IMG/VR virus record: IMGVR_UViG_3300021431_000005
Location: 1 to 64,000 of that record
Length of the DNA stretch: 64,000 bases
Reading direction: 5' to 3' (one strand)
Origin: a virus
Taxonomy: Duplodnaviria; Caudoviricetes
Shown here: positions 53,561 to 63,297 of the stretch, piece by piece
Position numbering within the stretch: position 1 is the first letter of the stretch
Layout: each line of letters starts with the position of its first letter
Translations under genes and position numbers: made by a program
The notes under the pieces: model-generated
Database searches by the model: none
Told to the model about the DNA's origin: nothing
What the model saw: only the letters and a program-made list of their open reading frames with translations

Positions 53561-56500
53561 TCATTTCTTGCCAACCAAACGATTCATGTTGGCTTCACGG
53601 ATATACCTATCCATATATCCCCTGAACTCATCATAATTCTTCGCTCTGATGTCGTTACCAGTAAATACAATAGTTGTAGAATTATCTATGCTTCCAGTAG
53701 TTCGCTCGGTAATTCTATCTATGGTTTTGTTATTCATGTAATTCGGAGTTCCGTTAAAGGCACTTGGGTAATTCATAGAACCCGAGAATACACTTGGCGC
53801 ACTATTCATAAACCTGTTCATCTGTTCTGTTTGTCCTGTACTCAATAATTTCCACAGCGTTGAAATCTGCTTATTGTTGAGAACCATTTCAGGATTAGAC
53901 GGTGTTCCATGAAGCATCGCAGGCCCCGTAAAGTCTACAATGCCGCCCTTAGAAAATCCTCTGAATGCCTTTAAAACACCTTCAAACAGAGAACCGATTA
54001 CACCAGATTCTCCACCTTCCCTCAATGCAGAGGTAAATGCTTTTAATGCAAGAGTTTGTTTCTCGGTTGCATTAGCAAATCTTACAGAGTATTCTTCGTA
54101 GAAATCAAGGTATCCCTCTTGTTCCTTCTTTAGCTTTTCATACTGGTCGATTTGCTTGTCATACTCTTTGATTACGCTCTGTGCATCTTCGATTTGAGGT
54201 TCGATAATATAGTGTAACTGATTCTGGAATCCTGCATAATTCAGTGCAAAGGAGTTAATAAGTCCAGTGTCTTTTGCCATAACAGCATCACGCCAGCCAT
54301 AACCAAGTATAGCTGCGGCATTGATTTCGTCCTGTGCATTTTTATACGAGTCGATTGCTTCTTGCCATGCTTCCTTATACTTTTCGTATGCCTCGATCTT
54401 CTCGTCAATCAAAGCAGTTTCTGCATCCCGCTGGCTTTCAAGTTCAGCTATACGATTATTATTGAGCGCATCATCATATTCTCGCTGTGCCTGTTCGAGT
54501 ACCGATTTGTCGCTTTCTATTCTGAATCCGCCACGTTCTTTATCGTAAACTCTGACTTGGGTGTTCCTTGCTTTTGCGAGTGCCAGTTCTTTTTCTCGGA
54601 GTTCGTTAGCACGATCACGTTCTTCATTTTCAGATTTAAGAGCGTCGATCTCGGTGTTGTATCTATCTTCAATTAACTTCTTCTCGTCTTCGAGAGACTT
54701 GATTTCTCGGTCGATTGCGTTCGATACCGCACTTGCCGCACTTTCATAATTAGAGATGATTGTTTCAAGAGCTTCTTTTTGCTCATTGAGGGATTCAAGA
54801 ATTTCATTCTGCTTATCTTTCTCTTCTTCAATAGCCTTGATTTTATCATCGTACAACTTAATTTGATTTTTGAGTTTAATAATAACATCGTTATACCCCG
54901 TGATAGATTCGGGTAACTCTTGTAATCTTGCTATAAGATTGTCAATGGCTTTGATTTGAGATTTATCAGTAAGCGTAGTCCTAATACTTCGCAGAGTTTC
55001 AACCAAATTGTCAGGCGCATTATCTCTAAGTTCAACAAGTTTTCCACGGAGTTTATCTGTATCGTCTATAACAGATATAAGCTCAGGATGGGCAGTAACT
55101 AATCCCCACGCTTCGTCATTATATGTACCTTCGTCAATTGAGTCGATGATCTGTTGTATAGATTCTACATCGCTCTTAATTGCATCTGCCTCATCAGAAT
55201 ACGAAGAGTAATCAAAAGACCCAGACGCAGCCTCCCAAAACTTCTTCGTCAGTTCGTTTATTTTGCTCGCAGCATTTTTAGCCGCTTCTTCTGCACCTTC
55301 GCCGGTAAATTCAAAACCGACCCTAAGTTTGAGATAGTCTTCTCCACCGCTAAGTACCTTTTGTGCATAATCTCTGACTTCTTCGTCACTAAGGAATCTA
55401 GGTGTGCCGTCCTTATCGTATGTTCGAGAAGAAAAGTTTGCCGCACCATTTCCTGAATTAGAAACGATAGTGGTAACTTTACCACCATTTTTAAGCCAAG
55501 CGTTGCCGCCTTTTTCGTATTCTTTAAGGGTATCAAAATACTCCTTGACCTTTTCAGCAGGACTTCTCGTGTCAACATTAACAGGTTGGTTAAACAATAT
55601 ATCAAGCAGGGTTTTCCAACTTGCCGTATTTTCTTTCGCTTTAAGAATATCGTCGTTGAGTGCCTTGACTTTCTTAGTATAATCTGCATACTCAGCCGCA
55701 TCACTCGGAGAACTGATATTATCAGGGGAAGTCACAGTATAGCTTTCTTTGATTGTATCAAGCTGTTTCTCTTTATCTTCCGCCCATTTCTCATTCGCTT
55801 CAATTTCTTTCTGTATGGTTTCTTTGGTTGACTTAAAGAAATTGTTTCTTGCTGTTTCAATATCAGAAAGCGCAATGGTGTAGCCGTCTGCGGTTTTAGT
55901 AAACTTGTCGGCGAGACTAGCATCAATATCAATAAGTTCTTTAACGTCAGCCGCTGAAAGACTCTCGCCTTGTAATAGAGCAGAGCGAGCGGAATCAAGT
56001 CTCGAAAGGCTTTCATTGGTTTTACTGTATGTTTCGTCCTTGAACTTTTTGAGATTCTGATTATAACCATCAAGCAGACTGTTGATTCCCACGGTCTTTT
56101 CAGCAATCATCGACTCAATATCATTGAATGTGGATTCTACGGTGTCCTTTGTAGCCGTATCATTATCGTCAATGCTTTTAAGAGCTACGTCCTTTAACGT
56201 TTTGATTGTTTCAGACCATGTATAAATCTCGGCGCTGTTGGATGAGCCGACGATGTTTTGAGCGTAATTGTAAGCGTTGTTTAGAATCTGCTGAATATCC
56301 TCGGGAATTTCACCCTCGTTGGATTCTCCACCGTCAATCAATTTCTGCATTTCCTCAAACGAAGAAATCAATTCTTTGTCGCGAGATATTTTTTCTTTGA
56401 GTTCTTTGCGCTTTTTATCAATCGCAGTTAACCACGCCATCTCGTTCTTGTTGCTCTTATCTATTGCGCCATCCAAGTCTTTCCAGAGTTTATCAAGAGT

Positions 56501-57613
56501 ATCTGCCTGTTCTTCAAGAGTACCAAATATACCGATATAATTGTAATTTTTGCTACCTTCTATTCCTTGGCGATACCCAATGTTTTGGTACTTCTCAATA
56601 GTTTCTTTATATTTTTCCCAATTTCCCCAACCACTTGCCTTTATTTCTGTTATACCTTTTGTTCCAAAAGAAAGATAAGTGCCGCCGTTGGACATTGTAA
56701 AATCTTTGCCAGCAAATTGACTCTCCTGTTTTAATTCATCTTTGGCATTATCATACCCTGTTTGATTCTCGTTAATAAATTCCTTGGCTCTTTCATAACG
56801 AGCCTTCTGTATCAGGTTAAGATTCTCAACATATTTGCCGTTGACTAAATCAACAGCCTTAGCTTCGTCACCCAGTTTTTCAACCAGCTTATCCTGAATA
56901 GAAGTCAGTTCTTCCTTCGACTTAGTTAAGTCTTCGCCGCTTAAAGCAAGTTTGTCATAAGTGTCAATCAGTTCTTCAATGGCTTCCTGTTCGTTTTTAT
57001 ACTCTTCGACATTTTCTTTGAGCTTTTCAATAGTCTCTTCTATATCAGCTTGTGCTTCTTTTTCTTTGTTGATAAACGTGGTTATTCCAGCGATTATACT
57101 AGAAATTGCCATAGAGACACCAAATGTTAATACTGCATTGAGTGCTACGTTCGCCGCTGTATAAGCCACAGTCTTAGCCGTTGCTCCGACAAGCTGTTTA
57201 GCGCAATCTCCAAATCCCATCTTTGCGCCGTTAAGCCCCTTAATAGTTCCGCCGAGTTTTCCATCAAGGTCTGAAAGAGCATTGGTGTATGCAGTTACCT
57301 GTTCGGGTGCGCCATGTTTTACTAGGTCATTATACTGCTTGATAGCTTTAAAACGCCCTACGATGCCGTTAGACAAATCAATCTGGGACTTATAGAAACT
57401 CTCCATGCTTACATTGGCGGCGTCAGTGTTTTTAGCAAACTCAATAAGGTCTTTGTTTACGTGTTTTAGAGAGTCGAGATTGCCACCCCGATATATTGCA
57501 GTATCTATTTCTTTAAAATCATCAACAGAATATTGAGAAAGTTTATTATATTTTAACCCTTTTAAAAATTCTATCCTTTTTTTATTTGTTGTTTTGTCGT
57601 TTATATTTACTAT
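53561..57613 (-). CDS. Tape measure protein, exon 2 (1350 aa)
   Basis: Long coiled coil with a TM-like segment (AANVALNAVLTFGV..AIS); C-terminal GFSKGG.VDFTGPAMLHGT...PEMVLN; no RBS at the tracked start. Confidence 0.85.
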   Translation of the reverse strand: MVNINDKTTNKKRIEFLKGLKYNKLSQYSVDDFKEIDTAIYRGGNLDSLKHVNKDLIEFAKNTDAANVSMESFYKSQIDLSNGIVGRFKAIKQYNDLVKHGAPEQVTAYTNALSDLDGKLGGTIKGLNGAKMGFGDCAKQLVGATAKTVAYTAANVALNAVLTFGVSMAISSIIAGITTFINKEKEAQADIEETIEKLKENVEEYKNEQEAIEELIDTYDKLALSGEDLTKSKEELTSIQDKLVEKLGDEAKAVDLVNGKYVENLNLIQKARYERAKEFINENQTGYDNAKDELKQESQFAGKDFTMSNGGTYLSFGTKGITEIKASGWGNWEKYKETIEKYQNIGYRQGIEGSKNYNYIGIFGTLEEQADTLDKLWKDLDGAIDKSNKNEMAWLTAIDKKRKELKEKISRDKELISSFEEMQKLIDGGESNEGEIPEDIQQILNNAYNYAQNIVGSSNSAEIYTWSETIKTLKDVALKSIDDNDTATKDTVESTFNDIESMIAEKTVGINSLLDGYNQNLKKFKDETYSKTNESLSRLDSARSALLQGESLSAADVKELIDIDASLADKFTKTADGYTIALSDIETARNNFFKSTKETIQKEIEANEKWAEDKEKQLDTIKESYTVTSPDNISSPSDAAEYADYTKKVKALNDDILKAKENTASWKTLLDILFNQPVNVDTRSPAEKVKEYFDTLKEYEKGGNAWLKNGGKVTTIVSNSGNGAANFSSRTYDKDGTPRFLSDEEVRDYAQKVLSGGEDYLKLRVGFEFTGEGAEEAAKNAASKINELTKKFWEAASGSFDYSSYSDEADAIKSDVESIQQIIDSIDEGTYNDEAWGLVTAHPELISVIDDTDKLRGKLVELRDNAPDNLVETLRSIRTTLTDKSQIKAIDNLIARLQELPESITGYNDVIIKLKNQIKLYDDKIKAIEEEKDKQNEILESLNEQKEALETIISNYESAASAVSNAIDREIKSLEDEKKLIEDRYNTEIDALKSENEERDRANELREKELALAKARNTQVRVYDKERGGFRIESDKSVLEQAQREYDDALNNNRIAELESQRDAETALIDEKIEAYEKYKEAWQEAIDSYKNAQDEINAAAILGYGWRDAVMAKDTGLINSFALNYAGFQNQLHYIIEPQIEDAQSVIKEYDKQIDQYEKLKKEQEGYLDFYEEYSVRFANATEKQTLALKAFTSALREGGESGVIGSLFEGVLKAFRGFSKGGIVDFTGPAMLHGTPSNPEMVLNNKQISTLWKLLSTGQTEQMNRFMNSAPSVFSGSMNYPSAFNGTPNYMNNKTIDRITERTTGSIDNSTTIVFTGNDIRAKNYDEFRGYMDRYIREANMNRLVGKK

Positions 57614-57641
57614 CGGACTTATAAATATATGTGGGAATATA

Positions 57642-57670
57642 TTGACAAAAATATAATTGCATGATATAAT
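57642..57670 (+). promoter_or_regulatory. Perfect sigma-A promoter inside the intron, antisense to the TMP gene
   Basis: TTGACA (57642-57647), 17 bp, TATAAT (57665-57670), then AAAGGAG RBS. Confidence 0.9.
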
Positions 57671-57681
57671 AATCAAAGGAG

Positions 57682-58149
57682 ATGATGAGAATGTCAGAGA
57701 AATATGTATTTATATGCCCAAAGTGTGGTCAAGTGGAGGGAATTACTTATCCTCATGGAACCATCGTTAATTGTTGTTTCTGTGAAACTCAATTATTAGA
57801 AACCAGTCTTACATTACATGAATCGGCTGAAGCAATAAGAAATGGTACGATTGAAATTATTGACCGCAAACTGTTCGAGCAGTATGTAAAAAACAATCCC
57901 TTGTATGACCAAAATGAGGCAGAACTTTCAAAGCTTAAAAGAGAAACTAATAAGATAGCGAACGAGATGCGGTACGCCGCCGAACGTGCTGTCAAAGAAG
58001 CAAACAAACCGCATTGTCCAGTATGCAACTCAACCAATGTTGAGCGGATCGGCGCAGTCCGCAAAGGTGTTTCAATTGCCGTTTTCGGATTGTTCAGCGG
58101 TGATATTGGAAAGACGATGGTTTGCAATAATTGCGGATATAAGTTCTAA
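57682..58149 (+). CDS. Intron-borne antisense cargo: double zinc-ribbon protein with a hydrophobic segment
   Basis: CPKC...CCFC and CPVC...CNNC; GVSIAVFGLFSG between the last two Cys pairs; no GIY-YIG, HNH or LAGLIDADG motif. Confidence 0.85.
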   Translation: MMRMSEKYVFICPKCGQVEGITYPHGTIVNCCFCETQLLETSLTLHESAEAIRNGTIEIIDRKLFEQYVKNNPLYDQNEAELSKLKRETNKIANEMRYAAERAVKEANKPHCPVCNSTNVERIGAVRKGVSIAVFGLFSGDIGKTMVCNNCGYKF

Positions 58150-58503
58150 AAACATTGTATTGATTTCGCCCTTTTCCCACTATGGCGGCGTGACCATATA
58201 TGATTTTTCAGTATTAAATACTGTTGTCCAGAGTACCCCATCACGATTTTCTACATATCGTTGTAGTTGACCGTGCTACCATTATACTCGTTGAACCTTC
58301 CTTTTCCAAGGCTTGGCTGCGGATTCGATAGCATTTCAGCTATCCTCCCCGAGCGAGAATCATAAAACTCGCTGTGCTATGCACCATGTTCGGTAGTTTT
58401 TCCAAAGCTCTCTTGTTGATATTACGAATACAATATCAACTCGTTCCGTGTTACCACCAGAGCTTACTCGGGCATATTCGCTGAGGGCAAACATTTTAGC
58501 CCT

Positions 58504-61500
58504 ACCCGAGCCTGTTTTCATTTGCAGTCCAGTTAAACCGAACGCAGTCGCTATTCCTGCGCCTGCCGCCGCACCATTCTTGGCGATTCCGTCTAATAAT
58601 TCAAGAAGTGTCTTTGCGCCGTCAATGAGAAATTTGACGGCTTCGCTGTTTACGGTATCAACTGATAACTGCTGCCATGTGGACTTCAACTGATTAAGTT
58701 TTCCGTCTATAGAATCAAGAGAAGATTCTAACTCCTTAGAAGCCGAACCTTCTGCAAGTCCCTCGTTCAAATCTTCAACAACTTTTTCTGCTGTCTCGAA
58801 GTTTCCAAGGATCGCCTGAACTGTATTAAGACCAACTTTACCACCAAGCATTTCGGCAATATCTGCTTGCTGCGAATCAGTTAACGTGTCATACACCCCA
58901 GAGATTTCTTTGAGTATCTGGTATGTAGATTTAAAAGTATTTTCGTCTTGCATAATGTCAATTCTTGTAATACTTTTTATCTTATCACGCAGTTCAGCAG
59001 TAGTAATTGTCATTTCTTCTGCATCTTCGCCAAGCTGATCCGTTGTGCCTCGGATTCTTGCAGAAATAGATTTAAGTGCCGTGCCAACAGTTTCCGTATT
59101 CTGTACGATAGTATTGGCAGAAGTAATAAGACCTATGGATTCGTTGAGATCGTTGCCTGCCGCATTCAAGGATGCCGCCGACCTCTGTAACGCATCGCCT
59201 ACTCCCTTGCTTGTGATTGCGAAGTTGTTGCCAGTATAATTGAACTTATCAACAATTTCTTCTGCGGTTACGCCGATTTTCTCATAAGCCTGCATTGTCG
59301 AAATAATGCTTTGGCTCGCTGTCTGAATATCTAAATCGTCGCCGACGGTTTTATAAACCGTTGCAAGTTTACCAAGATTTTCAGCTTCATTCAACGATTT
59401 ACCTAATCGACTGAACTCAGAGGTTGCATCAACATAATCCGTGAGTGTAGCACCTATATCCACAGAACGACCGCCTGCTGTATCTAAATACTGTTTGAGC
59501 TGTCTCTCGTTTGCATCTGTAACCTTTCTAAGATTCGTCATTGCAGTATCAACTTCATGAACCTGAGTAACCATATCTTTGAGCAATCTCACAGTATAGT
59601 TCAAACTCTTGGTAACAAACGCCCAACCGCCGTACTTCTTATACAATTCTCCAAGTACGTTACCGAAAGTCTTGCCGGACACGCCAGCTTCTTTAACGGT
59701 TCTGTCAAGTGCCGACATATCCGCTCTTAATTTATTCAGGTCTTTATCACTTTGAATTGCGCCCATGCTTATCCTATTAGTTAGTTCTTCATAGGCTTTT
59801 GCGAAATAAGGGTCTTTAAGCGCCTTAGAGTTATCGTCACCCCATTTTCCGAGTCGCTTTACTGTTTCTTCGTATTTTTTCTGAAAAGCAATTGCTGCGT
59901 TATCTGCCTGCTCCTGCTCTTTCATCGCTTTATTACTTTCTTTTTGAGCAGTTGTAAAATTATTTACGGCTTCGGTAACTTCGTCAAGTCTGTTAATATA
60001 TTCTATTAAAGGCTGAATTGAATTACCAAAGTATTGTTCTTTAAGAAAATCAGCGTCTTTTCCCTGAGCAGATGCCGCATTCACGATATATTCATTCTTT
60101 CGGCTCTCAAAATTGTTTGATAACGCTTCGAGCTGATTATTGTCAAGATTACCGATATTTGCCAGAATCTTTTGCGTTTCCCCACCGCTATCTCTGAGTT
60201 GTTTTAATAGCTTTTTAAGTTTTTGAACCTTTTTAGAGAAGTCGTCTATCTCGATATTACTACCATCGAAATTAAACATTGTTAGTCTTGCATCGTCATA
60301 ATCCTCGTATGCTTTGTGAATCTCGGATTCGTATACTTCAGGTTCTTCGGCTAAATATGGATTCTTTGAATAATTGCTTATTACCCCAAGTCTATATTCG
60401 AGAACTTTGAGTTTTTCTGTGTTACCGCCTGCAGCTTCAACCATTTTAATTGTACTACGCAATGTCTCTAACTTCTCATTTGCTTTCTCAGATTCAGAAA
60501 TGATCTCTCTGAGTGAAATAGCTAAGTCAGAAACGGTTTGAATATCATGAGATTCTTTTTGTAAATAATCAGTAAATCCCTGATCTTGACTATACAAATC
60601 TTCTTTGATTTGATTAACTGTATTACCAGATAAATTGGGTCGTTGAACCTTTTTGAGCATACTTTCGGCATTTGTATAAAAAGTAAGTATTTCATTAAAC
60701 TTATGTTCAAAATCATCTATTGGTTGAGATGTGGCATTAGGATGATTATCAAAATACCGTTTTATGTATTCAAATGAATCAAATACTTTTTTTACCGAGT
60801 CAAAATAAGTTGTAATATCTTGCCCAAGAGTCGCAGCTCTTTTAACAATTGCAGGATTGCCATTGGTAGTTATGGGAAGAGTTTGGGAATACGACAAGAG
60901 AGTATTTATGTCACTAATGTTTTTTTTCTGCCAATTCCCGAAGGATCTATTGTGTTCTTCCAACTCCTCCATTAATTCTTTGCGTTTTTCTTCAGATAAG
61001 TTTGCCTTGTTTATCTTCTTCACAACGTCTTCAATGTTTGAATAGATAACACGCATCTGTTCATATAATTCATTAAAGCCAGCTGTTGTGTGTGGCAATT
61101 GAGAATTGGTTTCTTTTAAAGATTTATCGAGAAATTCAAATAAATCATAATTCTCTTTTACTGTTGAAGATATTTCAAACGCTCTCTGTCTATCAGAGGC
61201 GGCGTTTTCAATTCCGCCAACGGTATTATCCTGAGTTTTAGAAGCGCCGCTGTTAACTATAGTTGGTTGATTTTTTTGTAACAGCTGCATAAGCTGTGCG
61301 AGCTGCGCTTGTGTCAGAAGACCACCGCTTGAATTTACTAATGCACTAAAATTAGTAACCTCAGTTTTAAACGTCTTGCCAAGTTGCGCTATTATATTAT
61401 CCAACTTCTTGCCAACGACATCAGCGTAATTGTCTTTGTTGTTAGCATTAGCAATCGACTTGTTGATTGAATCCGCCAAGGTTGCAATCTGTGTTTTGTA

Positions 61501-63297
61501 GAACACCTCGTTCACAGACTGTTCGTTGTCAACAGATTCAACTTGTATAGGCGAGTCAAACTTAGAAATCAGATTGTTGATAGCTTCTATTATTGTGTTA
61601 AGAAGATTGTTTACTTCGGGGGTCGTAGTATCATTCTGCTCTGTGTTTTCTTTTGTCTCAATAGCTTCGCTGATAAAGTCGTTTGTCCATTCGAGCCTGT
61701 TTTGTATATCCACGATACGCTCTGTTAACGATTCTTCATAAATGGGTTCTACACTTTCATCATTGTGCATTAACTGAGACTTTAAAAGACTATCTTCTGC
61801 AAAATCAACATTGATAGTTTGATTAAGTTTTTCGTAAATCGAATTAAGTTTTGTGCCAATAGAAGCAAGATTATTTATAATGTCAGGATCCACTGGTGTC
61901 TCAGGGGGAGGAGGTGAAGTTGTTGTGTCAGGATTTGATTCTTTTGGTTTATTGTTTTGCTTAATTTCGATATGTTTTGACAAAACATCACTCTCGACGC
62001 TCTCTATCTTTTTGAGTCCGTCAGCAATCATCTTTATAGATTTTGCGATTGTATCAAGTTTATTTGGAACTACAAAATCAATGTTGATTTCATGAGTCTT
62101 ATTGTCTATTTCATTGAGTATATCAGACAAAACTTTTAGTCCATTATCTTGTATATCAACTTTAATCTTAACGTCCTTGGATTCTACATTTGACAACTGT
62201 CCAATTGTTTGATCCAATTTGCCGACTTCTTTATTTACGTTCCCAACATTGCTTTCCAATGCTCTGATTGTATTATTGGTTGCATGAATATATTCTTGTA
62301 AAACAGAAACAGTTTGGCTCATTGGCGAAAGCGTAGTTTCGTTTACCGAATCAAAAGTATCCTTAAATATTTTTACAACCTGTATCATTCGTTTTATAAC
62401 ATCTTCAAGATTTTGAAAAGGAGAAGCCATTCCTTTTCCCGCATTTTCAATCGCATCAGTTGTTTTAGTTAGTTGTTTTATTTCTTTTGGTACAGGGAGT
62501 ATATCGCTTGCTTTTATTGTGTCTTGGGTTAGTTTAAAATTATTATTCCATGCCCTTCCAAAGCTTGATGCTGAAACCCCTATTTCAGTATACAGGGCTT
62601 TAAAGTCATCTTTATATTGTTTAGTTTCATCCGAAAAAGATTCGAGAGTTTTAATACTACCCTTAATATTTGAATTGAAGTCTAAACTGGGATCAATTTT
62701 TAATAGTGTTTGAAGTTTATTTAATACACCATAGGCTTTATTTGCAGTATCAGACAGCATTCCAATTTCATCAACCATCGCTTCGTATGCTTCCTTTGTT
62801 GTCTTGCTGTCTTTTCTGCCGGATTGCATGGCGCGTTGTAGATTACCGAAACTTTCTACCGCCTCTGGATCGCCAAGAGTTTCGTACATATTGGTTATTT
62901 CACTATTTAAATTAAGAAACTCGCTTTTTAAATTATCAAATGTTTTTTGAAGCGTTGCCTGATCCGTCATAATATCAGGTCTAATTTTCGAGAGAGTCCT
63001 AAGTCCTTCGAGAACTTCTTTGCGAAGTCCCTCGGAATCAAACTTGACTTTAAAAGTCTTGTTTATTATTTCGCTTCTGCCACCCATATTGAGTATGCGT
63101 CCAATAGCTTCGTTTACTTTGTTTAATTTTGAAGCTTCAACTGGACTATCGTTTTCTTTGATTATATAATTTGCCGTAATATTTACGCCTTTGGACTCAA
63201 GCTTTTGTATCTTTTTTTCTAAATCATCCAGTTCTCCGTTGTTGACTTTTGTATCAAACACTATATCAAAATTGCTATTTTCATCCATTTGTCTCAC
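58504..63297 (-). CDS. Tape measure protein, exon 1 (1598 aa)
   Basis: TP901-type core: VDTAMTNLRKVTD, IVDKFN..GNNFAITS, LQRSAASL..AGN, VGTALKSISARIRG, FKSTYQILKEIS, SLDSIDGKLNQLK. Confidence 0.9.

What the first reader, a model, noticed from the sequence alone, without database searches (positions are those of the whole stretch)
57614..58503. Group I intron splits the tape measure gene, and splicing restores a ~2948-aa TMP exactly in frame
Seen on the minus strand. P1 pairs exon CUCGGGU (58510-58504) with GCCCGAG (58473-58467) and ends in the U.G wobble that marks a 5' splice site (58504|58503). P2 is AAGCUCU/AGAGCUU. P3 is CUACC (58396-58392)/GGUAG (58280-58276). The P4-P6 region contains AAUCCGCAGCCAAG..CCUUggaaAAGG..GGUUCAAC. 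P7 is A(C)GAGUA (58291-58285)/UACUCU (58235-58230): it has the bulged nucleotide and G-C guanosine-binding pair, and covaries from the usual GACUA/UAGUC. P8 is CACGG/UCGUG. P9.0 is GGAC (58229-58226)/GUCC (57618-57615), immediately before the terminal G at 57614. The guide UAU can pair with exon-2 AUA (P10). Both junctions are phase 0, giving ...KTGSG|IVNINDK... (1598+1350 aa). Established: phage group I introns are best known in DNA-metabolism genes, with some in late genes. Inference: tail assembly here depends on splicing, and standard annotation would wrongly call two TMP genes.
Basis: partly seen in the sequence, partly recalled or inferred. Interest (0 to 1): 0.93.

Follow-up and report, generated by a model that had tools for sequence, protein, structure and literature searches.

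The report
Group I intron splits phage tape-measure gene
A self-splicing-type (group I) intron of 890 bases really does interrupt the tail tape measure gene of this 117-kb gut phage, and its removal rebuilds one 2,948-residue protein. Such introns in tape measure genes are already known, so the main novelty is its unusual cargo: an oppositely oriented gene with its own promoter instead of a homing endonuclease.

Summary

**Evidence that it is a group I intron**
- The element carries an exact Q-P6-R core, AATCCGCAGCC..GGTTCAACGAGTA. This occurs once in the 117-kb genome and is shared with more than 100 viral group I introns.
- Its P7 variant GAGUA/UACUC is a natural class.
- Homologous introns sit at the same tape measure (TMP) codon in at least eight other gut-phage contigs.
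- On seven of these sequences, 98.4% of 574 pair cells are standard pairs, against 30-41% when partners are slid. Sixteen pairs carry compensatory double changes, against 0-1.
- P9.0, which fixes the 3' splice site, covaries: GGAC/GUCC, GGAC/GUCU, GGAC/GUUC, AGAC/GUCU.
- Uninterrupted TMP homologues (for example 3,144 aa) align across the spliced junction ...KTGSG|IVNIN without an indel.

**Limits**
- Rfam RF00028 misses this whole intron lineage.
- P3 is invariant, so covariation cannot test it.
- No RNA evidence for splicing exists.

**Novelty**
Group I introns in TMP genes are already published (B. cereus prophages, phiCD211), so this is a new member of a known kind. The unusual part is that the P9 region holds no homing endonuclease. 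It holds an antisense zinc-ribbon gene under purifying selection, behind a perfect sigma-70 promoter.

The parts
58504..63297 (-). TMP exon 1 (1,598 codons; the ORF reads on into the intron to a stop at 58360)
   Evidence: PF10145 PhageMin_Tail 71 bits, phrog_4211 1.8e-71; 51% identical to residues 1336-1878 of the uninterrupted 3,144-aa homologue P0009
57614..58503 (-). Group I intron, 890 nt
58467..58510 (-). P1 (exon CUCGGGU 58510-58504 with internal guide GCCCGAG 58473-58467; U.G at the 5' splice site). It encloses hairpin P1a (AGGGC 58503-58499 / GCCCU 58488-58484) and the P10 guide UAU 58476-58474.
   Evidence: P1a closing pair is C-G / U.G / U-A in relatives; in the diverged intron L171, P1 is AAGGGU/GCCCUU, following its own exon
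58405..58465 (-). P2 (AAGCUCU/AGAGCUU) enclosing P2.1 (GUUGAUAUU 58440-58432 / AAUAUCAAC 58423-58415)
   Evidence: P2.1 is replaced by CCGCAC/GUGUGG in L166 and GUCGAU/AUUGAC in L168
58392..58396 (-). P3 5' strand CUACC (partner GGUAG 58280-58276)
   Evidence: invariant in 7 relatives, so untested by covariation
58352..58384 (-). Two extra hairpins between P3 and P4: hpA GUGC/GCAC (58384-58374) and hpB AGCGAG/CUCGCU (58373-58352). The hpB loop UAUGAUU 58364-58358 can pair with AAUCAUA 58205-58199.
   Evidence: compensatory changes U-A>C-G in hpA and G-C>A-U in hpB; the loop-loop pairing is kept with different letters in L171 (GGUAAU/AUUAUC)
58294..58351 (-). P4-P5-P6 domain: P4 CGGG 58351-58348 / UCCG 58323-58320; P5 GAUAGC/GCUAUC; Q element AAUCCGCAGCC 58325-58315; P6 AGCC/GGUU; P6a CCUU-GGAA-AAGG
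   Evidence: four compensatory pairs in P5; P6a loop GGAA>GAAA in relatives keeps GNRA
58230..58297 (-). R element GGUUCAACGAGUA, P7 GAGUA 58289-58285 / UACUC 58235-58231, P3 3' strand GGUAG 58280-58276, P8 CACGG/UCGUG
   Evidence: (almost all of about 45 metagenome introns with GAGUA have UACUC or UAUUC in the S element)
58181..58229 (-). P9.0 5' strand GGAC 58229-58226, P9 CAGUAU/AUACUG 58223-58209, P9.1 UAUGGU/GCCAUA 58198-58181
   Evidence: 4 (P9) and 3 (P9.1) compensatory pairs
57614..57618 (-). P9.0 3' strand GUCC and terminal guanosine G57614 (3' splice site)
   Evidence: P9.0 covaries: GGAC/GUCC here, GGAC/GUCU (L174, L175), GGAC/GUUC (L179), AGAC/GUCU (L166, L168, L177, L178), GGUC/GACC (L171)
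57642..57670 (+). Antisense promoter TTGACA-17 nt-TATAAT with TG extension, inside the intron's 3' part
   Evidence: 12 of 12 consensus; TTGACA..TATAAT also present at the same place in L166, L168, L170, L174
57682..58149 (+). Antisense cargo gene: double zinc-ribbon protein of 152-155 aa (likely start ATG 57691, 9 nt after GGAG)
   Evidence: dN/dS 0.17-0.19 against the L174/L175 copies; no homing-endonuclease family hit
53561..57613 (-). TMP exon 2 (1,350 codons plus stop)
   Evidence: collinear with phrog_4211 profile 958-1640 and with P0009 residues 1923-3144; no Shine-Dalgarno sequence or start codon near its 5' end

Best explanation
An 890-nt group I intron (minus strand, 58503-57614) interrupts the tape measure gene of a 117-kb siphovirus-type gut phage.

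Proposed mechanism:
1. In the late tail-operon transcript, the last seven exon-1 bases pair with the internal guide to form P1, with a U.G wobble at the cleavage site.
2. A free guanosine bound in P7 attacks after U58504.
3. The terminal G57614 is then brought into the same site by P9.0 (GGAC/GUCC) and P10 (UAU/AUA).
4. The exons are ligated in phase 0, giving an mRNA for a single 2,948-aa TMP with junction ...KTGSG|IVNINDK.

The roughly 550-nt stretch between P9.1 and the 3' strand of P9.0 holds no homing endonuclease. It holds an oppositely oriented zinc-ribbon gene with its own consensus promoter. In the pre-mRNA this stretch is simply a large loop.

Shown: the anatomy, its conservation and covariation, and the continuity of the protein in intron-less relatives. 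Inferred: that splicing takes place, and whether it is autonomous.
For: - **Coordinates and frames:** reproduced.
- **Core motif:** the Q-P6-R motif AATCCGCAGCC..GGTTCAACGAGTA is unique in the genome. It is the motif of more than 100 viral group I introns; of the 14 loci re-scanned, 9 scored 56-106 bits on RF00028.
- **P7:** the variant GAGUA pairs with UACUC. Almost all of about 45 metagenome introns with GAGUA carry UACUC or UAUUC in the S element.
- **Homologous introns at the same TMP codon:** L174 and L175 (core 99.1% identical); L166, L168, L169, L177, L178, L179 (about 80%); and the diverged L171.
- **Covariation on 7 sequences:** 82 pairs, 98.4% of cells paired against 30-41% slid, and 16 pairs with double changes against 0-1 slid.
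- **3' splice site:** P9.0 covaries through G.U intermediates over 0.6-2 kb of intervening sequence.
- **In-frame splicing in relatives:** every relative splices in frame to K-x-(T)-G-(S)-G|I-(V/L/F).
- **Intron-less homologues:** uninterrupted TMPs P0009 (3,144 aa), P0008, P0006 and P0007 cover both exons and align across the junction without an indel.
- **Profile collinearity:** phrog_4211 matches exon 1 at profile positions 549-951 and exon 2 at 958-1640.
- **Precedent:** TMP introns in B. cereus-group prophages (PMC2504315) and in phiCD211.
Against: - RF00028 gives no hit at E<=10 on this element and none at E<=0.1 on its relatives.
- P3 (CUACC/GGUAG) and the other catalytic-core helices are invariant in the relatives, so they rest on consensus only. 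In the diverged L171 intron the equivalent P3 strands (CAACC, GGGAAG) do not pair.
- About 45 nt with two hairpins lie between P3 and P4, where canonical introns have about 3 nt.
- P10 is only 3 bp in this phage.
- The seven aligned introns fall into two clades, so many of the double changes trace to one deep split.
Confidence: 0.88

Rival explanations
1. Decayed or non-functional intron. The ribozyme-like sequence is a relic, and the phage makes two separate TMP polypeptides: exon 1 with its 47-codon read-through tail, and exon 2 from an internal start.
For: No RNA evidence for splicing. No homing endonuclease. Rfam does not recognise the element. The J3/4 region is atypical.
Against: The core is 99.1% identical between copies whose cargo and exon 2 are only 72-78% identical. 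All core substitutions but one are loop changes or pair-preserving. There are 16 compensatory pairs. Exon 2 has no ribosome-binding site, and its first in-frame ATG is about 70 codons into exon 2. Intron-less homologues are single proteins.
Confidence: 0.07
2. A real intron, but with a different 3' splice site. The only other in-frame G is G57674, which would add 20 residues (IIISCNYIFVNIFPHIFISP).
For: The reading frame of exon 2 is open from 57676.
Against: G57674 has no preceding P9.0 partner. P9.0 next to G57614 covaries in relatives, and G57614 is followed by AUA as in all relatives. The junction at 57613 aligns without an indel to intron-less homologues.
Confidence: 0.02
3. Chance resemblance. 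An ordinary intergenic region with a divergently transcribed small gene lies between two independent tail genes.
For: Gene callers annotate relatives in exactly this way.
Against: The exact 19-base core motif occurs once in the genome. Pairing is 98.4%, against 30-41% in the slid controls. The phase-0 junction reproduces the sequence of single-gene homologues.
Confidence: 0.01

Closest known systems
TMP-IVS1/IVS2/IVS3 group I introns in tape measure genes of Bacillus cereus-group prophages (Tourasse and Kolsto 2008, PMC2504315)
   Same: Group I introns inserted in frame in long TMP genes of Firmicutes phages. Different introns can occupy one site; here L171 and L173 carry diverged introns at or near the same site. 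Several of the B. cereus introns lack a complete homing endonuclease.
   Different: Those introns are IA1/IA2, with P7.1/P7.2. This one has none (J7/3 is UAAU), and it has two extra hairpins between P3 and P4. The host phage clade differs (ruminant and other gut metagenomes). It carries an antisense self-promoted gene.
Intron_gpI annotated in the TMP gene of Clostridioides phage phiCD211 / phiCDIF1296T (NC_029048.2)
   Same: A large (131 kb) Clostridia siphovirus whose TMP, 33% identical in the core, is split by a group I intron.
   Different: The insertion site differs: it lies inside the PhageMin_Tail core, upstream of ours. That intron is a 265-nt ORF-less intron detectable by RF00028 (41.7 bits).
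IStrons (group I intron fused to an IS200/IS605-type element, e.g. CdISt1 of C. difficile). From my own knowledge; not tested here.
   Same: A group I ribozyme whose 3' part carries non-endonuclease cargo genes, in Clostridia.
   Different: No transposase or IS ends are seen here. The cargo is a zinc-ribbon protein on the opposite strand with its own promoter.
Classical phage introns with homing endonucleases (T4 td/nrdB/nrdD, SPO1 DNA polymerase)
   Same: Same ribozyme class. Same logic of an ORF parked in a peripheral loop.
   Different: The ORF there is a sense-strand endonuclease that mobilises the intron. Here no endonuclease family is detected.

Membership tests
Group I intron | P1 helix formed by the exon end and an internal guide, with a U.G wobble at the 5' splice site | tested here: met
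   CUCGGGU/GCCCGAG with U58504.G58467. Invariant in 7 relatives. The L171 intron at the same site has AAGGGU/GCCCUU, matching its own exon.
Group I intron | Conserved catalytic core elements (P4/Q, P6, J6/7, P7/R and S) | tested here: met
   AAUCCGCAGCC..GGUUCAACGAGUA is identical in form to more than 100 viral introns. The S element GGGGUACUC pairs with the GAGUA variant, as in almost all of about 45 metagenome introns of that variant.
Group I intron | P3-P7 pseudoknot (P3 pairs a strand 5' of P4 with a strand between P7 and P8) | tested here: inconclusive
   CUACC/GGUAG (5 bp) is present and in the right order. It never varies in 7 relatives. The equivalent strands of L171 do not pair. Two hairpins lie between P3 and P4.
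Group I intron | Terminal guanosine at the 3' splice site, positioned by P9.0 and P10 | tested here: met
   G57614 is preceded by GUCC, which pairs with GGAC 58229-58226. There are five covarying P9.0 states in relatives. P10 is 3 bp here and 5-6 bp in L168, L170 and L171.
Group I intron | Match to the curated covariance model RF00028 | tested here: not met
   No hit at E<=10. The model also misses L166, L168, L171, L173 and L174, and 5 of 14 other loci holding Q-R introns at gathering score. This is a known sensitivity limit, not a structural test.
Group I intron | Guanosine-dependent self-splicing | not testable with these tools
   No RNA run holds the stretch. The metatranscriptome of the source sample gave no cover.
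Group I intron | Removal restores a continuous host gene | tested here: met
   The phase-0 junction aligns without an indel to the uninterrupted TMPs P0009, P0008, P0006 and P0007.
Phage tail tape measure protein | PhageMin_Tail / TP901-type core followed by hydrophobic segments and a long helical region, in a tail module | tested here: met
   PF10145 at 71 bits, above the cut-off of 33. phrog_4211 and six other TMP PHROGs match. Relatives lie downstream of YomV/YomU/YomN-type tail genes.
Intron-encoded homing endonuclease | LAGLIDADG, GIY-YIG, HNH, His-Cys box, PD-(D/E)XK or EDxHD domain in the intron ORF | tested here: not met
   P0001 hits only generic zinc-ribbon models, all below cut-off. 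The cargo ORFs of relatives also lack such domains.

The most novel reading that the evidence does not exclude
This intron lineage is not a homing element. It acts as a stable docking site for accessory genes, at one codon of the TMP gene of SPbeta-like gut phages.

The P9 terminal loop carries interchangeable, independently promoted cargo in either orientation:
- a zinc-ribbon protein here
- membrane proteins in L166 and L168

Introns at or near the same codon that are diverged or of a different type also carry antisense cargo: 358-aa and 146-aa genes in L171, and a SLATT-domain protein in L173.

A conserved consensus promoter fires antisense into the ribozyme and TMP exon 1. The intron would therefore let a phage insert early or lysogenic genes in the middle of an essential late gene at no coding cost. 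Cargo transcription could also antagonise TMP expression.
Probability: 0.35. Interest if true: 0.7.

Novelty: new member of a known kind. Interest (0 to 1): 0.5.

Why it matters
**Annotation.** This phage has one 2,948-aa tape measure protein, which predicts a tail of roughly 0.44 micrometres at 1.5 angstroms per residue, and not two genes. The same mis-annotation is present in at least eight related public contigs. The standard Rfam model does not flag any of them.

**Biology.** This adds a well-supported, covariation-backed case of an essential virion gene that depends on RNA splicing. It also defines an intron lineage with two unusual features:
- two extra hairpins between P3 and P4, one of which forms a loop-loop contact with the P9 region
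- a non-endonuclease, antisense, self-promoted cargo gene under purifying selection

This makes it a tractable system for asking how introns without homing endonucleases persist, and whether they serve as carriers for accessory genes.

Tried and rejected
**Rfam**
- No hit on the window at gathering score, at E<=10 on 57300-58800, or for RF00028 on the whole genome.
- No hit on five relatives.

**Searches that found nothing**
- blastn of the intron against 50,697 phage records: no match.
- tblastn of the exon-2 N-terminus against phages: no match.
- The search for related loci with either exon in IMG/VR: nothing confirmed.
- Word-based search for long homologues of exon 2: none. The exhaustive search then found them.
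- Exact 41-mer of the core in IMG/VR: none.

**Sequencing runs**
- No RNA holder is listed. The metatranscriptome of the source sample (X21) laid no contig on the stretch.
- The three DNA runs laid (X2-X4) all carry the intron. No contig joins the exons, so no intron-less allele of this phage was seen.

**Other negatives**
- PADLOC has no hit for any cargo protein.
- Pfam and PHROGs did not identify the neighbouring tail genes.

**P3**
- I looked for alternative P3 pairings: ACCG/CGGU, UUAU/AUAA and GUGC/GCAC.
- I also looked for a P3 in the diverged L171 intron. No alternative fits all relatives, and L171's P3 stays unresolved.

**Not attempted**
- I did not build a covariance model of the roughly 360-column core, because calibration would exceed the tool's time limit.

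**Rejected readings**
- IStron: rejected because there is no transposase.
- Intein: rejected because there are stops in all frames of the intervening sequence on the gene strand.

Full report
**Context.** The window is the first 64 kb of a 117,052-bp IMG/VR phage genome with 127-bp direct terminal repeats. Near-identical or related DNA occurs in sheep, bovine and other gut metagenomes. On the minus strand, two long ORFs lie head to tail: 63297-58360 (1,645 aa) and 57676-53561 (1,371 aa). The first carries the PhageMin_Tail core (PF10145, 71 bits) and matches TMP PHROGs (phrog_4211, 1.8e-71). The second matches the next part of the same 2,625-position profile: exon 1 maps to positions 549-951 and exon 2 to 958-1640.

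**Checking the observation.**
- P1 CUCGGGU/GCCCGAG with U.G at 58504
- P2 AAGCUCU/AGAGCUU
- P3 CUACC/GGUAG
- P7 GAGUA/UACUC
- P8 CACGG/UCGUG
- P9.0 GGAC/GUCC next to G57614
- UAU opposite exon-2 AUA

The intron is 890 nt. The exons are 1,598 and 1,350 codons, and both junctions are phase 0. A minimum-energy fold of the 5' 300 nt recovers P1, P2, P2.1, P4-P5, P6a, P7 and P8, with z = -3.1. Only two G residues upstream of exon 2 would keep the frame (57674 and 57614), and only the second has a P9.0 partner.

**Is it a group I core?** Rfam's RF00028 does not report it, even at E<=10. The element nevertheless contains AATCCGCAGCC-(P6a hairpin)-GGTTCAACGAGTA, the classical Q and R elements with P6 between them. 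This occurs once in the genome. A scan of IMG/VR for AATCCGCAGC..GTTCAACGA returned more than 108 loci with the same layout and a covarying P6. I re-scanned 14 of these loci; 9 score 56-106 bits on RF00028 and 5 fall below the gathering score, so the model is known to miss introns of this kind.

The unusual G in P7 (GAGUA, not GACUA) is matched by UACUC in the 3' strand. In about 45 metagenome introns selected only for GAGUA, the S element almost always reads GUACUC or GUAUUC. This is therefore a natural P7 variant.

**Relatives and covariation.** An exhaustive phmmer search with the first 600 residues of exon 2 gave 720 hits. Fetching their contigs revealed the same intron at the same codon in other gut phages, together with searches using two 22-28-nt core words, the antisense protein, and the peptide encoded by read-through into the intron:
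- L174 and L175: core 99.1% identical
- L166, L168, L169, L177, L178 and L179: about 80% identical
- L163-165 and L170: 3' ends only
- L171 and L172: a more diverged intron
- L173: a different intron at or near the same site

On seven aligned sequences with my 82-pair structure, 98.4% of 574 cells are standard pairs. When the 3' partners are slid by 1-3 columns, this falls to 30-41%. Sixteen pairs have changes on both sides, against 0-1 in the slid controls (three-sequence version). The compensatory changes lie in:
- P1a (C-G, U.G, U-A)
- P2.1
- two hairpins between P3 and P4
- P5 (four pairs)
- P8
- P9 (four pairs)
- P9.1 (three pairs)

P1, P2, P3, P4, P6 and P7 never vary, so covariation says nothing about them. 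The seven sequences form two clades, so many of the double changes go back to a single split.

**The 3' splice site.** P9.0 joins strands 0.6-2 kb apart. It appears as:
- GGAC/GUCC (this phage)
- GGAC/GUCU (L174, L175)
- GGAC/GUUC (L179)
- AGAC/GUCU (L166, L168, L177, L178)
- GGUC/GACC (L171)

It is always followed by G and then exon-2 AUA (GUA in L163). P10 is 3 bp here but 5-6 bp in L168, L170 and L171 (GAAUAU with AUAUUC). In L171, P1 is AAGGGU/GCCCUU, tracking its own exon sequence. All copies splice in frame to K-x-(T)-G-(S)-G|I-(V/L/F).

**The protein is one protein.** P0009 (3,144 aa, one ORF in L167) covers exon 1 residues 1016-1573 at 51% identity and exon 2 residues 14-1350. P0008, P0006 and P0007 also run through the junction. 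In a MAFFT alignment the spliced sequence QMKTGSG|IVNIN lines up with RRQTSG-NILGF, KKVTNG-GILGY and KKTIGG-SILGI without any indel at the junction. Exon 2 has no ribosome-binding site near its 5' end. The purine run there is the complement of the antisense gene's own GGAG.

**What is unusual.**
1. About 45 nt lie between the P3 5' strand and P4. They fold into two hairpins, each backed by a compensatory change. The loop of the second hairpin (UAUGAUU) can pair with AAUCAUA after P9, and L171 keeps such a contact with different letters. This insertion and the P7 variant probably explain the Rfam miss. It also leaves P3 as the least secure helix.
2. There is no homing endonuclease. Instead, the region between P9.1 and the P9.0 3' strand holds a plus-strand gene: a 12-of-12 consensus promoter at 57642-57670 with a TG extension, GGAG, and a 152-155-aa double zinc-ribbon protein. 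Its homologues are 81-44% identical, with dN/dS 0.17-0.19, so it is a real gene. The promoter is kept at the same place in L166, L168, L170 and L174, while the cargo differs: membrane proteins, a larger antisense pair in L171, and a SLATT-domain protein in the unrelated L173 intron.
3. Between this phage and L174/L175, identity drops from 96-99% (exon 1 and core) to 72-78% (cargo and exon 2) at the end of the core.

**Comparison with what is known.** Group I introns in TMP genes were described at three sites in B. cereus-group prophages (IA1 and IA2 types, several without complete endonuclease genes) (PMC2504315). Phage phiCD211, whose TMP core is 33% identical to ours, carries an annotated Intron_gpI at another site in the gene. 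Introns in other late genes (terminase, capsid, tail) are also on record. Gut jumbo phages have dozens per genome, about half of those tested being confirmed by metatranscriptome reads (PMC12880540). The central claim is therefore a new, well-supported member of a known kind. The antisense self-promoted cargo, the extra hairpins and the invisibility to Rfam are the parts a specialist might find new. I found no paper describing such cargo in a phage intron, but the searches were limited.

**What is not shown.** No RNA data cover the locus: no RNA holder is listed, and the source sample's metatranscriptome laid nothing on it. Splicing, its autonomy and its efficiency therefore remain inferences. 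The three other metagenomes laid on the region all contain the intron, and no intron-less allele of this phage was seen.

**Verdict.** Observation confirmed; interpretation supported (confidence 0.88). Novelty: new member of a known kind. Interest 0.5, mainly for the cargo and the structural variant rather than for the existence of an intron in a tape measure gene.

Noticed in passing
window 57642-58149 (+): Antisense cargo gene inside the intron. It has a perfect TTGACA-17-TATAAT promoter with a TG extension, a GGAG ribosome-binding site, and a 152-155-aa double zinc-ribbon protein. Homologues are 81-44% identical, with dN/dS 0.17-0.19. There is no endonuclease or defence-family hit. A homologue in an Anaerovorax chromosome (L176) also lies next to an oppositely oriented 1,170-aa gene of unidentified family.
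   Followed up: partly
own genome 82904-83247 (-), outside the window (L112:1501-1844): A second group I intron candidate. RF00028 scores 25 bits over the full model, with E 1.4e-5 for the genome. It looks IA-like, with an insert after P7, and lies between two minus-strand ORFs (the upstream one matches phrog_8308).
   Followed up: partly
L166:2330-3995, L168:870-2140 (-), L171:1560-3345, L173:1580-3455, L174:2345-2806: The cargo of the intron at this TMP site differs between phages:
- L166: sense 49-aa and 194-aa ORFs behind their own TTGACA..TATAAT promoter, plus an antisense 190-aa protein with a zinc ribbon and apparent membrane segments
- L168: a sense 141-aa ORF and an antisense 201-aa ORF, both apparent membrane proteins
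- L171: antisense 358-aa and 146-aa ORFs
- L173 (a different intron): an antisense SLATT_1/DUF4231 protein

Intron lengths range from 890 to 2,433 nt.
   Followed up: partly
window 57200-58900 compared with L174 and L175: There is a sharp mosaic boundary at the end of the ribozyme core. Exon 1 is 96-98% identical and the core 99.1%, but the cargo region is 77-78% and exon 2 is 72%. The intron appears to mark a recombination junction between the N- and C-terminal halves of the TMP.
   Followed up: no
window 58352-58384 and 58199-58205 (-): Two covariation-supported hairpins occupy J3/4, which is normally about 3 nt. The loop of the second hairpin can pair with a conserved single-stranded AAUCAUA after P9. 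The diverged L171 intron keeps this contact with other letters (GGUAAU/AUUAUC). I know of no standard subgroup with this feature, but I did not check the structural literature.
   Followed up: partly
L174:3017-5806: In this relative the N-terminal TMP part seems to be split once more. A 1,378-aa PhageMin_Tail ORF is followed by 59-aa and 319-aa ORFs, and then by a 252-aa ORF that holds the end of exon 1. This may be a second insertion in the same gene.
   Followed up: no
L177, L178, L179:1-3000: The tail modules upstream of the related split TMP genes carry YomV, YomU (tube) and YomN Pfam families. That places this phage group near the SPbeta-like siphoviruses.
   Followed up: no
window 58284-58325: In other gut metagenomes, several unrelated contigs match only these roughly 40 bases (the Q-R core) and then diverge. 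They are other group I introns of the same samples (tables 7 and 8).
   Followed up: no
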